DNA of 63,679 nt, counting the filler, from Kipferlia bialata (Eukaryota): NCBI GenBank assembly GCA_003568945.1. It is 4 parts of 4 records of this genome, joined end to end, with 100 filler letters (N's around TTAATTAATTAA, not from the genome) between each part and the next. Parts side by side here need not be neighbours in the genome. Positions count along the whole stretch, not along the records: positions 1 to 20,082 come from BDIP01000395.1; positions 20,183 to 40,259 come from BDIP01000396.1; positions 40,360 to 60,433 come from BDIP01000397.1; positions 60,534 to 63,679 come from BDIP01000486.1. One strand, written 5' to 3'. Under the pieces are notes generated by a model. That model was not told the DNA's origin, did not search any database, and saw only the letters and a list, made by a program, of their open reading frames with translations. Position 1 is the stretch's first letter, and the number at the start of each line of letters is the position of its first letter. Of this stretch, positions 1,480 to 63,281 are shown in pieces. A program made the translations under genes and the position numbers.

Positions 1480-3039
1480 ATGGAGTGTCCCATTTGCCTC
1501 TCCTCAGATGACATCCCATGGCTAGTCACAACATGCGGTCACATGTACCACAATCAGTGTCTGGAGAAGGGTTTGATTAGGTTAGTTATCATCACTGATA
1601 GTAAGAGCCACGTTTGTTTTGTTGTATGGGGCTCATAATGAGCTACATGTATTCTTCTCTTACATTGTAGCTCCAGCACTTGTAGTTCTGCCGTATATGT
1701 GTATATATGTATATACATATATATAAACACAGGAATGTTTAGATGTGTATACATGTGAGCGCGTTGATATGTATGTATATGTCTGTATGTATACATATTT
1801 ATATGTATATATTATATAATATATGTATACTCCTCACCCCTGTGAGTGCGCTACCTAATCTGCAGAGATGGATACTGATACCGATACTGATACATTCATA
1901 GATTCATATATATGTGTGTGTGTGTGTATGTACATAGCTAACACTTATGCCTCTTACCCCAGTGGCAGGGCTAGATGTCCAATCTGCAGGGAGCGCATCA
2001 GTCTGACAACATGTGTCAGAGCATTTCCACAGGTAATCATATATATCCGGAGTATATATAACCAACACAATGTAAGAGTATAGTATCTCATACATGCATA
2101 TACTGTCATTACTGACTATCGCTGGAAGTGTTATTATTACAACTGATATATATCATGAATATGTAGATGTATATGTAGAGAGAATTGTCTACTGTGTCAA
2201 CTGCACTATCTTACTCCTAGCTTCCTTCCACTGTCACAGCCCCACCTGAGAATGTGACATTCGGTCAGGCAGGGTCAACAGCAGAGAGAGAAAGAGAGGT
2301 GAGACCCCAGCTGTCACCCATAGACCCTAATCAGGGAGAGCTCTGCCTACAGGACCTGGACCCCTCATGGATAGAGGAAGACAGACAGGCGAGACAGAGA
2401 CTGCATGCCAGGCGAGGTGGTAGAGGGCCCTCCCCCTCTCTTACTCGTGCGGCTCCCTCTCCCTCTCCCTCTGCCTCCCGGTCTGCCTCGAGCAGAGTAC
2501 CTACAGCGGCTGATAGGCCGAGGGGCCGTGGAATACGCACATACCTCGAGACCCGCCGGCAAGAAAGAGCGGCAGAGGCAGAGGCAGAGAGGGCGAGGGT
2601 AGCTACGGAGAGACTTGCTGCTGAAGCTAGGGACAGGGAGAGAGACGCAGCAGCAGCTGAGAGGGAGAGAGTGGTCACAGAGAGAATAGCTTCAGCAGTG
2701 AGAGAGGTAGAGCAGAGACACGCTGAGGAAGAGAGGGAGGCTGTCGCTGTTAGGGAGGCAGAGAGAGAGAGGGAGAGCCAAGTAGTGGCGGATCTTGAGA
2801 GAAGCCTCGCTGCCGCAACTGAGGCTGAGAACACGAGGCTACAGCAGGCGGAAGAGGAAGCGAGGGAGAGGAGAGAGGCGGCGGCGAGAGTGGAAGCAGC
2901 AGCAAGAAAGAGGAAGAGAGAGAGAGAAGCCATGATGGAGCTGCTGGAGATGATCGGGTCAGGCATTGGCCAGACCCTGGGCGTGGTCTTTGGCAGTGCT
3001 GTTGTGGTGGCAGCATGGCGCAGAATTGGACACAAGTAG
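1480..3039 (+). CDS. RING-finger protein with coiled coil and C-terminal tail anchor (putative membrane-anchored E3 ligase); exons 1480-1580, 1963-2032, 2221-3039
   Basis: Manual splicing at GT-AG sites gives MECPICLSSDDIPWLVTTCGHMYHNQCLEKGLISGRARCPICRERI (RING-H2 Cys/His pattern). This joins in frame to the E/R/A-rich ORF, which ends in hydrophobic GQTLGVVFGSAVVVAAW plus a basic tail. Confidence 0.85.
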
Positions 3040-3719
3040 GTATATGTATGAAAAGTTCTCAGACTCAGAATCCATAGAGTCTATTGAATAGAGTAAGCTA
3101 AGCTTGCCAATCTCATTAATAGGTAGTAAAGCGTTGTAAGTTGAGAATAATGTCATTGTGTATGTTCTGCACTCCATGTGGACACTATTTATATCTACTG
3201 ATTCAGTAACTGAAGCATGCTTCTATACCCTACGATTCCATGAATATAAGTGTCAGACCGGCTTGCATCATGTAACCGTTAATATGATACATACAGAGCA
3301 ACTAACAAATTCGACACTTCCAAACCCATGGGAGTCATACTGCAAAGCATTCTTCTCCCACTTGAACCACAACACCCATAATCGTCTACGCTGGCTTTGA
3401 GTCAAACGTTGACGCGTTGATAGAGTGTAGAGTTCACATCAAAGACGAGTTGACGTCGGCAGACTTCTATTTTACAACTCAGCGCTGGTGTATGCCTCCA
3501 CCAGTGGGGGACCCCCACCAATACGGATCAGATAGACAATATATAGCTCTTAAGATCTCCTAACCATGTCACTTTCAGAGTCTTCTCAATGTGCAATCAA
3601 TCAATCTCTCTGTTAACAATGTTTGATACAGTGTGAGGCCGCCGTCGAGTATAGTGACTATACTGTATTGTTATCTCTGTCTATTTACCCTGTTGTCTTG
3701 AAGAACTATCCTCCTATAC

Positions 3720-61116: not shown

Positions 61117-61152
<36 letters not shown>

Positions 61153-63281
61153 CCTCTCTGTCTTCTTACACCCCTATTCTCCAGGTGACTATGCGGCTGC
61201 CATCATCGATGTTTTCTCTCTCTCTCCCCCTCTCTCTCTTCCCCCCTTCATATACCCTTATCCCCCAGGTGATTATGCCGCTGCCATCATCGGTGTTGGG
61301 TTTGGAAAGCACAAGCTGGTGGGAAGCAAGGTGAGGCATGCGTCTCAATCTGTGTCTGGAATTTCTATACGATTGGATTAGGTAGGTCAAATTCTACCCT
61401 ATGTCTCACCCCCAGTCCCTTGGGGCTCCATCACTTAGTTGTGTGTATATATATATATCGATATGTTTAAGCGTATATGTAGTTGTGTGTCTAATCCCAG
61501 TCCCTCGAGGGCTCCATCGGATCACTTAGTGTCTATATATACTTATATATATATGTGTGTATAATGTATAAGTATACTGGTTCCTCACCCCAGTCCCTCG
61601 AGGGCTCCCTGGGATGCTTCGTGGCCTCTCTCATGACCAATGCCCTGGTCATCGTGGCAGTGGGTGAGTGGGTGTATATATATACATACTATATATGTAC
61701 ATACATACTTGCTTCATATATATTCCTTTACATATACTGAGCCTTCGACTCTGGACCCCTTGTTCTCTCCGATAGTTAGCCCTATGCCTCGATCTATTCC
61801 TCCATCTCTGACATCTTTAGTTTTAGCCTCTGACGTGGCAGTGGGTATTGTATGTATTTATACATTCATATATATTACTCTCTATTATTATATCTTACCC
61901 TTCAGTCACTGACCTTGGCCCCTCCGATGTCATGTATATACACACATATATTTATATATATATAGGATAGTATTTGTATAAATATATATGTGTGTATATA
62001 AATATATCTAACCCCAGCCACTGACCTTGACCCCTCCGATGTCCTTGGCCTTGCCACGGCAGGGGCATTCTGCTGCACAGTGGGTATGTATGCATATACA
62101 TATATTATAGTATATTTTTATATATATGCATGTGTAGTATTGTGTACATAGTGGATTGTATATATGCGACGCCTGGGGCATTCTGCTGCACAGTGGGTAT
62201 GTATGCAAAGATATATAAGCTTTGATATTATATATAGATATTCCTCAACGACTAGTGAGTGTATATATATGCGTATAGTTCCATATATATATATGCACCA
62301 TTGACTAACCTCATAGGAGGTCTCTGTATACACTGCCAAACATATGGTTTGCTCTTGTAGAAGTGTACTCTCATACCACCAACTACTCATATATATGTAT
62401 ATATGTTGACAATATTACTATGTATGTATGTGTGCTACATACTTACCTATCAGGAGAGCTCTTCTCCAGTAACCCCATATTTGTGAGTGTTGATATGTGT
62501 CATTCTTTGGTACTATGCTGTCTGTTGGTTATATATATCTGTTTCGATGGACTAACCTGTCCAGGAGAGCTCTTCTCCAGCGATGTCTGGATGCTAGACG
62601 ACAACTTTGTGGTGCCAGTGACTGGGGCAATAGGTATGCCGTGTTGTATGTAGTTAGTGTGTATATGAGATTTGTGTGAGTATGTTGGTGTACATACCTA
62701 GATACACAATCAGTGACTGTAGCCATATGTGCACTGTGCCAGTACCAGCATGTATTAATACTGTAAATGCGCATGTATATAGTGAGGAGCTAATCTGTAT
62801 ATAGTATTTGGGTGACTATGCTTTCATATATGTATTCACCTTTCCCCAGGCAAGTTTGTGCATAATATATTACATGTTGTATATTGTGTTGTAAGATAAT
62901 CTCAGTATGTGGTATTCGTTGACTATGTGTGCACATATATGCATATATATATGTGATTCTATATATTTCTATACACCTAACCCCAGGCATGTTTGTGTGT
63001 ACTGCTATGTATGCATGTATGTGTGTGTGTGTGTATGTATGTATATTTGTGTATATATTTATATCCACCTAACCCCAGGCATGTTTGTGTGTGCTGCTAT
63101 AAAATATATATAATATGTATATATAAATGTATGTATATATATATTTCTGTGTATAGCTTACCCCCAGGCATGTTTTGTATGTATGTATGTATGTTTATGT
63201 ATTATTCTATATTGCTTACCCCCAGGCATGTTTGTGTGTGCCGTGCTGCAGGGTGCCAACCTGTCATTCAGCAGTTTCTAG
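60649..63281 (+). CDS. CTP-dependent lipid kinase of the Dgk1/phytol kinase/dolichol kinase family (5' truncated)
   Basis: Spliced: REKEKDQTSGLTPYFIGSIVSILFFQPPIAVAAIASLCTGDYAAAIIGVGFGKHKLVGSKSLEGSLGCFVASL...ELFSSDVWMLDDNFVVPVTGAIGMFVCAVLQGANLSFSSF*. It contains the family motifs GD.AA..G..FG, KSLEGS and DDN...P. Confidence 0.85.

What the first reader, a model, noticed from the sequence alone, without database searches (positions are those of the whole stretch)
1833..63225. Window-wide 'shadow exon' system: introns built from polarised partial copies of flanking exon edges that keep coding sense
Seen: in all four contigs, introns contain one to five copies of [branch point + AG + first codons of the next exon] upstream of the real exon. 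They also contain copies of [last codons + GT donor] downstream of it. Copies are separated by (TA)n-rich spacers. Many differ from the real exon mostly at synonymous third positions or by conservative substitutions. Known: only about a quarter to a third of random substitutions in a coding frame are synonymous, so a neutrally decaying copy should be mostly non-synonymous. Inference: the copies are or were under protein-level selection although they are incomplete exons. Candidate mechanisms: (a) frequent gene conversion or unequal crossover of shadows into the exon; (b) homology-mediated removal of DNA or RNA between direct repeats, giving mosaic mRNA; (c) unusual alternative or recursive splicing. 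The spliceosome must also choose among near-identical decoy splice sites. I am not aware of a description of this system, but I could not search the literature.
Basis: partly seen in the sequence, partly recalled or inferred. Interest (0 to 1): 0.92.

Follow-up and report, generated by a model that had tools for sequence, protein, structure and literature searches.

The report
Retired exon edges fill protist introns
In the free-living protist Kipferlia bialata, over half of the introns examined hold partial copies of the neighbouring exon's edge, which the one gene checked in RNA skips; the copies differ from the exon mostly at silent positions, likely because they are leftover pieces of other working alleles, which would make one genome a record of very high diversity and recombination in its species.

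Summary
The window is four contigs of Kipferlia bialata. 68 of 119 hand-modelled introns carry 112 exon-edge copies, strictly polarised: 41/119 acceptor-side, 41/119 donor-side, wrong side 1/119 each. An RNA contig splices all 14 introns of one gene at the exon-nearest sites and skips its 12 copies. DNA contigs span the arrays.

The structure is known as amphioxus 'mirages'; this scan also met it in a sea urchin (e1-7787241). The synonymous excess was not found in print: 174 of 254 differences, dN/dS 0.14, against 0.52-0.55 for simulated neutral decay.

Selection on the copies is not the best reading. Their amino-acid changes are not conservative, and silent divergence is about 0.29 however decayed the copy is. 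The likely explanation is that copies are edges of other functional alleles, left by duplication and inter-allelic recombination, then decaying neutrally. That would imply extreme synonymous diversity and sex. No second isolate was found to test it.

The parts
20183..23987 (+). Gene A (TPR protein, partial), 15 exons. All 14 introns are confirmed by an RNA contig that uses the exon-nearest donor and acceptor
   Evidence: 14 GT..AG joints, depth 1038, no other letters; TPR_19 E 2e-4 on one exon
20275..20299 (+). Donor copy of exon A1 tail, skipped
20601..20620 (+). Acceptor copy of exon A3 head (2 synonymous differences), skipped
21000..21029 (+). Donor copy of exon A4 tail (3 synonymous differences, GT kept), skipped
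21392..21405 (+). Donor copy of exon A5 tail, skipped
21886..21923 (+). Acceptor copy of exon A8 head, skipped although in frame and without a stop
22151..22181 (+). Donor copy of exon A8 tail, skipped
22372..22398 (+). Donor copy of exon A9 tail, identical over 27 nt, skipped; lies in a low-depth unspliced RNA contig (22273-22407, depth 8.9)
22626..22825 (+). Intron A10: one donor copy (22626-22651), then two acceptor copies (22723-22749, 22812-22825); all skipped
23073..23200 (+). Two acceptor copies of exon A12 head, skipped
24374..29395 (+). Gene B (membrane protein); copies in 5 of 14 modelled introns
   Evidence: RNA pieces 27100-27344 and 28047-28387 lie 112 nt apart, matching two modelled exons of 60+52 nt
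26431..26721 (+). Array of four acceptor copies before the exon at 26792
29794..37048 (+). Gene C (kinase-like by eye); copies in 13 of 18 introns
6499..20002 (-). Gene E (VWA-like start by eye, then cysteine-rich repeats), 36 exons; 53 copies in 29 of 35 introns; 116 of 162 differences synonymous
   Evidence: not RNA-checked
18399..18462 (-). Longest copy: 64-nt donor copy of exon E4 tail, 9 differences, all synonymous, GT kept
16434..16731 (-). Three acceptor copies before the exon at 16346
15616..15900 (-). Three acceptor copies before the exon at 15538; one has the only gap seen in 112 copies, an in-frame 3-nt deletion
9955..10138 (-). Three acceptor copies before the exon at 9874; two units nearly identical including the spacer (5 mismatches in 114 nt), showing a tandem-duplication unit of 83 nt
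3720..6085 (-). Gene G (RING-finger paralogue of gene F); four acceptor copies at 5513-5117 before its 1314-nt last exon
1480..3039 (+). Gene F (RING finger). Its old decayed acceptor copy at about 1846-1870 is shared with gene G (5862-5843), so it predates the F/G duplication
60649..63281 (+). Gene D (membrane protein, partial); copies in 5 of 6 introns, plus four short acceptor copies at 62850-63180 below the score threshold
49968..52264 (-). Gene H; copies in 3 of 7 modelled introns, one of the few contig-3 genes with them
45716..48478 (+). Gene K (GNAT domain): short introns, no copies in 11 of 11 modelled introns (internal negative control)
53988..58406 (+). Ubiquitin-fusion surface protein; its second exon matches a named Kipferlia bialata protein at 100% and identifies the organism; no copies

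Best explanation
The copies are tandem duplications of about 105 nt across splice junctions ('mirages'), which the spliceosome skips in the one gene checked by using the splice sites nearest the exon, and their silent differences are likely standing differences between working alleles rather than selection on the copies. Inferred mechanism: a break or template switch near an exon edge is repaired on a second allele. It is anchored in the exon, the only part still similar, and rejoined out of register in the (TA)n-rich intron. One allele's exon edge stays in use; the other is retired into the intron. A variant gives the same pattern: duplication from the sister chromatid, then ordinary allelic recombination replaces the exon. 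Polarity is geometry: the copy that keeps the rest of the exon is the last at an acceptor and the first at a donor. After retirement the copy decays neutrally and is lost or overwritten. So silent sites carry allelic divergence (about 0.25-0.29) and replacement sites carry only time since retirement (about 0.03). Shown: anatomy, polarity, skipping in gene A, synonymous excess, uncoupling of the two clocks. Inferred: allelic origin, the repair route, exon-proximal site choice outside gene A.
For: Skipping: 14/14 joints exon-nearest, 12 copies skipped, no copy letters in the RNA contig. Decoy donors score as high as real ones in 26/49, so position, not strength, decides. Tandem units: near-identical units including spacers; intron flanks more alike than controls (13/57 and 11/49 above the control 95th percentile, p 3e-4 and 6e-3). 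Synonymous excess: 174/254 against 103-117 expected when exon-lineage changes are doubled in (maximum 130-144 in 20,000 draws). It holds in gene A alone (17/21), outside gene E (58/92, dN/dS 0.14) and where an inner copy differs while an outer copy equals the exon (16 of 25, 6.0 expected). Two clocks: silent divergence is 0.288, 0.292 and 0.287 in copies with 0, 1 or 2+ replacement changes; rho 0.00; only 4/66 long copies are identical. An allele-plus-decay simulation reproduces this; neutral decay does not. Replacement changes look unselected: BLOSUM mean -0.54 against -0.41 random and +0.56 / +0.24 between working paralogues or repeats; Cys/Trp changed 10 times against 8.7 expected. AG/GT loss (11 of 107 dinucleotides) is near the replacement rate, far below the silent rate. 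GC3 of copies is 0.675, equal to exons (0.670), while introns are 0.384. No close paralogue to donate copies showed in the DNA run over contig 2 (8 variant rows at 90% likeness). Context: fornicates lack Ku-dependent end joining and Rad51A and keep two Dmc1 paralogues (PMC8516963 passages); Dmc1 tolerates mismatches (abstract starts in the listing).
Against: No second allele was seen. The DNA contigs run 0.9-1.6 kb with 0-1 differences at even depth, so this strain looks haploid or homozygous and the exchange must have happened earlier. No relative was found in two metagenome scans. The implied silent diversity (about 0.30-0.37 after correction, by hand) is above the highest eukaryote values I recall (about 0.2; recalled, no call). 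The allele simulation was given the silent rate it reproduces. A selected-copy model with near-equal ages also gives rho near 0 (16/40 runs). Only 1 stop codon among 80 replacements against 3.7 expected, and the single indel is in frame: weak hints of selection. The GC-direction contrast is not significant (p 0.08). RNA evidence is one gene, one run, contigs that drop rare forms. The 105-nt spacing is unexplained.
Confidence: 0.55

Rival explanations
1. Ongoing indirect selection: copies are swapped into the exon by conversion or collapse often enough that harmful changes in them are purged.
For: dN/dS 0.14; silent excess also in inner-derived changes; 1 stop against 3.7 expected; one in-frame indel; 52/58 AG and 44/49 GT kept.
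Against: Replacement changes are not conservative. With a spread of ages this model gives rho 0.29-0.40 and 14-22% identical copies, against 0.00 and 6% observed (0/40 runs). By my own argument, an exchange rate slow enough to leave 25% silent divergence is only a few times the mutation rate, too slow to make selection on a copy effective.
Confidence: 0.15
2. A single past hybridisation between two diverged Kipferlia lineages, followed by a burst of mismatch-tolerant repair, left most copies at once. The silent differences are then lineage divergence, not standing diversity.
For: Silent and replacement counts are both barely overdispersed (0.97 and 1.18), as for one age class. It avoids the need for record diversity.
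Against: Arrays hold up to three states at one site (gene G exon 3), near-identical young units exist, and an old copy predates the F/G duplication, so births were spread in time.
Confidence: 0.13
3. The copies are used at low level in splicing (alternative, recursive or mosaic mRNA), and that use keeps them in frame.
For: Splice signals are mostly intact. 9/107 decoys would be in frame without a stop. 9/62 acceptor copies have a usable donor shortly behind them. RNA contigs drop rare forms, and one search showed 15 of 370 joints.
Against: In 22200-24010 the full table shows only the 6 main joints, although a depth-9 unspliced contig was kept beside the depth-1038 one. 98/107 decoys give a frameshift or stop. 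Exons with acceptor copies start with GT no more often (8/41 against 16/78). Copies cover a median 36% of the exon.
Confidence: 0.07
4. Plain tandem duplication followed by neutral decay, with the silent excess coming from the exon's own evolution, mutation context or detection bias.
For: It explains anatomy and polarity with no further assumption, and halves the expected dN/dS.
Against: It predicts 0.52-0.55 through the same detection pipeline. Observed 0.12-0.21 under spectrum, trinucleotide, non-redundant and fixed-window treatments; 131 of 206 non-CpG changes are silent.
Confidence: 0.04
5. The arrays are assembly artefacts in which two haplotypes were laid in tandem.
For: It would give silent-biased differences. 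The assembly has gaps inside three arrays, and the DNA run may be the source of the window, so it is not independent.
Against: 97% of sampled 31-mers are in the DNA run's contigs. Contigs of 0.9-1.6 kb with 0-1 differences at even depth 417-463 span arrays. Only 6/112 copies share 31 or more exact letters with the exon. An unspliced RNA contig reads through exon A9 into its donor copy. Copies are strictly partial and polarised.
Confidence: 0.03

Closest known systems
Amphioxus 'mirages' (Adh3, globins BflGb6 and BflGb9, PGBD5; PMC3087553 and PMC3902484, passages read; the original Canestro 2002 paper could not be read)
   Same: Tandem duplications of exon-intron boundaries at both 5' and 3' sides; units of 10-160 nt; many but not all keep AG/GT; splicing stays normal; a highly heterozygous host.
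   Different: Reported at a handful of lancelet loci, against 68 of 119 introns here, in an unrelated single-celled lineage. Spacers here are mostly much more diverged than the exon part. No synonymous analysis in PMC3087553 (0 hits for 'synonymous').
Human F7 intron 7 VNTR with 5' pseudo-sites (PMC1557585, abstract read)
   Same: A repeat spanning the exon-intron boundary puts donor decoys downstream; the most upstream donor is used and the decoys stay silent.
   Different: One locus, 37-bp near-identical units, donor side only. First-come scanning explains donors, but here the last acceptor is also chosen over upstream decoys.
Intron gain by tandem or internal gene duplication (Rogers model; listing, e.g. 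PMC4974935 abstract start)
   Same: Intragenic tandem duplication involving splice signals.
   Different: That model creates a new intron from duplicated exon sequence. Here existing introns lengthen (median 288 against 106 nt) and no new exon is seen in the RNA.
Mutually exclusive tandem exon duplicates (general knowledge)
   Same: Exon-like copies in introns with synonymous bias.
   Different: Those are whole exons with both splice sites and are expressed. These cover a median 36% of the exon, carry one splice site and were skipped in the gene checked.

Membership tests
Mirages (boundary-spanning minisatellite-like duplications) | Tandem direct copies that include both exon and intron sequence at a junction | tested here: met
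Mirages (boundary-spanning minisatellite-like duplications) | Both acceptor-side and donor-side boundaries are duplicated | tested here: met
   62 acceptor-side and 50 donor-side copies
Mirages (boundary-spanning minisatellite-like duplications) | Many but not all units keep AG/GT | tested here: met
   52/58 and 44/49
Mirages (boundary-spanning minisatellite-like duplications) | Regular splicing is undisturbed | tested here: met
   14/14 introns of gene A, one RNA run, contigs only
Mirages (boundary-spanning minisatellite-like duplications) | Whole units 81-100% alike, with concerted evolution inside clusters | tested here: inconclusive
   A few arrays have near-identical units, but only 13/57 and 11/49 intron flanks exceed the control 95th percentile
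Mirages (boundary-spanning minisatellite-like duplications) | Copy number differs between haplotypes or cells | not testable with these tools
   One sample, contigs only; no relative found
Mutually exclusive or tandem duplicated exons | Complete exon with acceptor and donor, included in mRNA | tested here: not met
   1 of 112 copies covers over 80% of its exon; skipped in gene A
Recursive splicing | Intronic AG|GT sites that regenerate a donor | tested here: not met
   8/41 against 16/78 exons start with GT; intermediates themselves could not be examined
Introner-type mobile introns | One mobile sequence family in many introns with short target-site duplications | tested here: inconclusive
   Each copy matches only its own exon (0.36% of cross-gene controls pass) and cross-locus flanks score low; no genome-wide family search was possible

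The most novel reading that the evidence does not exclude
Kipferlia introns are an archive of retired exon edges from other alleles. Mismatch-tolerant, Dmc1-only repair between highly diverged alleles writes about 100-nt junction duplications into most long introns, and a reduced spliceosome picks the exon-nearest acceptor and donor among equal-strength decoys almost without error (gene E would pass 53 decoys). One haploid-looking genome would then show cryptic sex and synonymous diversity near 0.3, and the same test would explain mirages in lancelets and sea urchins.
Probability: 0.4. Interest if true: 0.8.

Novelty: new variant of a known kind. Interest (0 to 1): 0.62.

Why it matters
First, it turns a curiosity from a few lancelet genes into a dense feature (57% of modelled introns in this window) of a protist, with a quantitative signature that points to how mirages form; the amphioxus paper calls that mechanism unclear (PMC3087553 passage). 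Second, if the silent differences are allelic, they give population diversity and evidence of recombination from a single genome of a free-living relative of Giardia. Third, it offers many natural pairs of equal-strength decoy and real splice sites in a spliceosome that keeps 87 of 174 surveyed proteins and has no identified snRNAs (PMC6679479 passages). Choosing the last acceptor argues for cross-exon or exon-content recognition, which is testable. Fourth, the copies trap gene predictors: my own automatic model took many as exons, so Kipferlia gene models and intron counts may need checking.

Tried and rejected
No whole genome is held, so nothing is genome-wide. An automatic gene finder over-included copies as exons and was replaced by hand models. 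Left unmodelled: introns at 25227-25741, 51819-51594, 46176-46457 and 48007-48237, the genes at 39700-40259 and 59050-60433, and the outer ends of several genes. Dropped 3 of 115 hits: 26673-26684 (low complexity), 7479-7460 (overlaps an acceptor copy) and 40724-40738 (internal). A protein search with one gene-E exon found nothing. Two metagenome scans found no relative. The run search listed no RNA holder on record; X2 was a guess, and its 14 GT..AG joints (8 checked against the DNA run and absent there) show it is spliced. The random-window control for donors behind acceptor copies (161/425) included donor copies and is not used. Rank in the array gave no age gradient. The GC-direction test was not significant. 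Canestro 2002 is not held. No supplements were opened; those of PMC3087553 (mirage alignments) may bear on whether lancelet units show a silent bias. No structure or complex prediction was run.
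Full report
Setting. The window holds four contigs joined by N-flanked spacers. A long exon on contig 3 matches a named Kipferlia bialata protein at 100%, so the DNA is from this free-living fornicate. The species' genome paper (PMC5874029; passages and section 12 read) reports 124,912 introns in 51 Mb and has no hit for 'duplicat'. No whole genome was held, so every count below is for this window.

Observation. I built 119 introns by hand, all in open frames. Introns end in a branch-point motif a few bases before AG. To avoid favouring splice signals I aligned exon sequence only, with a score threshold passed by 0.36% of 1381 cross-gene controls. Exon heads were found upstream for 41/119 and exon tails downstream for 41/119; the wrong side gave 1/119 each and the reverse strand 0/119. 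After dropping 3 of 115 hits there are 112 copies in 80 arrays in 68 of 119 introns, by contig 31/39, 27/46, 5/28 and 5/6. Copies are 12-64 nt (median 26), spaced a median 105 nt apart. Introns with copies are longer (288 against 106 nt) and richer in (TA)n (59/68 against 16/51).

Are they real? 97% of sampled words are in a DNA run, which may be the window's source. Its contigs run 0.9-1.6 kb across arrays with 0-1 differences at even depth. Only 6/112 copies share 31 or more exact letters with their exon. A tandem mis-assembly of haplotypes is unlikely, though long reads are lacking.

What does the RNA do? One contig of run X2 (depth 1038) joins all 14 introns of gene A at GT..AG. It always uses the donor nearest the upstream exon and the acceptor nearest the downstream exon, skips 12 copies and shows no copy letters. 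The 8 joints checked against the DNA run are absent there. One search showed only 15 of 370 joints. One search, on 22200-24010, showed all: six main joints and one unspliced contig at depth 9. Contigs drop rare forms, so low-level use is not excluded. Using a decoy would give a frameshift or stop in 98/107 cases; AG|GT is not enriched. Decoy donors score at least as high as real ones in 26/49. First-come scanning explains the donors, as for the human F7 repeat (PMC1557585, abstract). It does not explain choosing the last acceptor. That points to pairing across the exon or to exon content against (UA)n spacers (inferred). Pairing across the exon alone is strained by last exons with decoys, such as the 1314-nt exon of gene G.

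Synonymous bias. Of 254 differences 174 are silent; 186 fall on third positions. dN/dS is 0.14 (0.10-0.20 by bootstrap over 69 arrays). Fixed windows from the junction give 0.17-0.21. Trinucleotide matching gives 0.12, non-redundant counting 0.13, genes other than E 0.14; gene A alone has 17 of 21 silent. The corrected expectation is 103-117 silent changes, with a maximum of 144 in 20,000 draws, and a ratio of 0.52-0.55 when neutral copies are simulated through the same detector. The data reject it. The excess persists where an inner copy differs while an outer copy equals the exon (16 of 25, 6.0 expected), so it is not only exon-lineage change.

Selection on the copies, or before they were copies? 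Three results favour 'before'. (1) Replacement changes are not conservative: BLOSUM -0.54 against -0.41 random, and +0.56 and +0.24 between working paralogues and repeats in the same window (p 0.003, 0.001); Cys/Trp are not spared. (2) Silent divergence is 0.29 whether a copy has 0, 1 or 2+ replacement changes; rho is 0.00; 4/66 long copies are identical. One clock with a spread of ages gives rho 0.29-0.48, whether copies are neutral or selected. (3) AG/GT loss runs near the replacement rate, and third positions keep exon-like GC. Against: a selected model with near-equal ages also gives rho near 0 (16/40 runs); stops are 1 against 3.7 expected; the one indel is in frame; and the allele simulation was handed its silent rate.

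Mechanism. A tandem duplication across a junction produces the polarity by itself; young units that match in the spacer too show the unit. The silent differences are most simply those between working alleles. Close paralogues as donors were not seen for contig 2. Either the duplication is templated on another allele, or it is made on the sister and the exon is later replaced by allelic recombination; these data cannot separate the two. Fornicates lack Ku-dependent end joining and Rad51A and keep two Dmc1 paralogues (PMC8516963, passages), and Dmc1 is mismatch-tolerant (abstract starts in the search listing). That makes exon-anchored repair on a diverged allele with out-of-register rejoining plausible, but it is untested. 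The cost of this reading is a silent diversity of about 0.3, above the values I recall for any eukaryote, in a strain that looks homozygous. A past hybridisation is the main variant. No second isolate was found.

Comparison. PMC3087553 (passages) describes tandem duplications of both boundary types that mostly keep AG/GT, do not disturb splicing and vary between haplotypes, in a highly heterozygous animal, with the mechanism called unclear. PMC3902484 (passage) adds PGBD5 and troponin C. The structure here meets four mirage features, is inconclusive on whole-unit homogeneity, and could not be tested for instability. The original mirage paper was not held. Searches found no report of these copies in Kipferlia and no report of a synonymous bias in mirages. 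The library lacks most subscription papers, and no supplements were read. PMC6679479 (passages) gives the reduced spliceosome; PMC2812944 was seen as an outline only.

Verdict. This is a new variant of a known kind: mirages at unusual density in a protist, with a silent-site signature that most likely records other alleles rather than a function of the copies. Interest 0.62; 0.8 if the allelic-archive reading (probability about 0.4 in its full form) holds.

Noticed in passing
window 10722-10656 (-): A cysteine-rich exon of gene E needed to keep the frame seems to start after a branch-point motif followed by TG instead of AG. The in-frame AG options are a 16-nt exon or ones that include spacer.
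   Followed up: partly
window about 25441-25526 (+): An exon of gene B seems to start after CTCACCCC-AT; the nearest AG (25484) breaks the frame. A possible second non-AG acceptor, not RNA-checked.
   Followed up: partly
window 24020-24116 (+); also 46571-46640 and 53334-53380: Long C/G runs look like assembly joins. The gene A transcript continues about 410 nt past 23988 with sequence not found in the window.
   Followed up: partly
window 7481-7451 (-): A copy that starts as the head of exon E34 and continues like the tail of exon E33, across about 11 shared letters. Possibly a duplication of a whole intron by microhomology. In the 12 introns with both kinds, donor copies precede acceptor copies.
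   Followed up: partly
window 1480-3039 (+) and 3720-6085 (-): Convergent RING-finger paralogues F and G (silent divergence 0.27, replacement 0.10) share an old decayed acceptor copy. G has four acceptor copies before its last exon, F none.
   Followed up: partly
all modelled introns: The branch-point motif sits 1-7 nt from the AG (99/119 match), a fused 3' signal like that I recall for Giardia and Trichomonas introns (recalled).
   Followed up: partly
window 53988-58406 (+): Ubiquitin domain fused to about 290-residue Ig-like repeats (870-nt period) and a membrane anchor; Kipferlia paralogues exist.
   Followed up: no
window 24117-24250 and 63581-63652: Small intergenic tandem repeats (20-nt and 42-nt units) unrelated to exons.
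   Followed up: no
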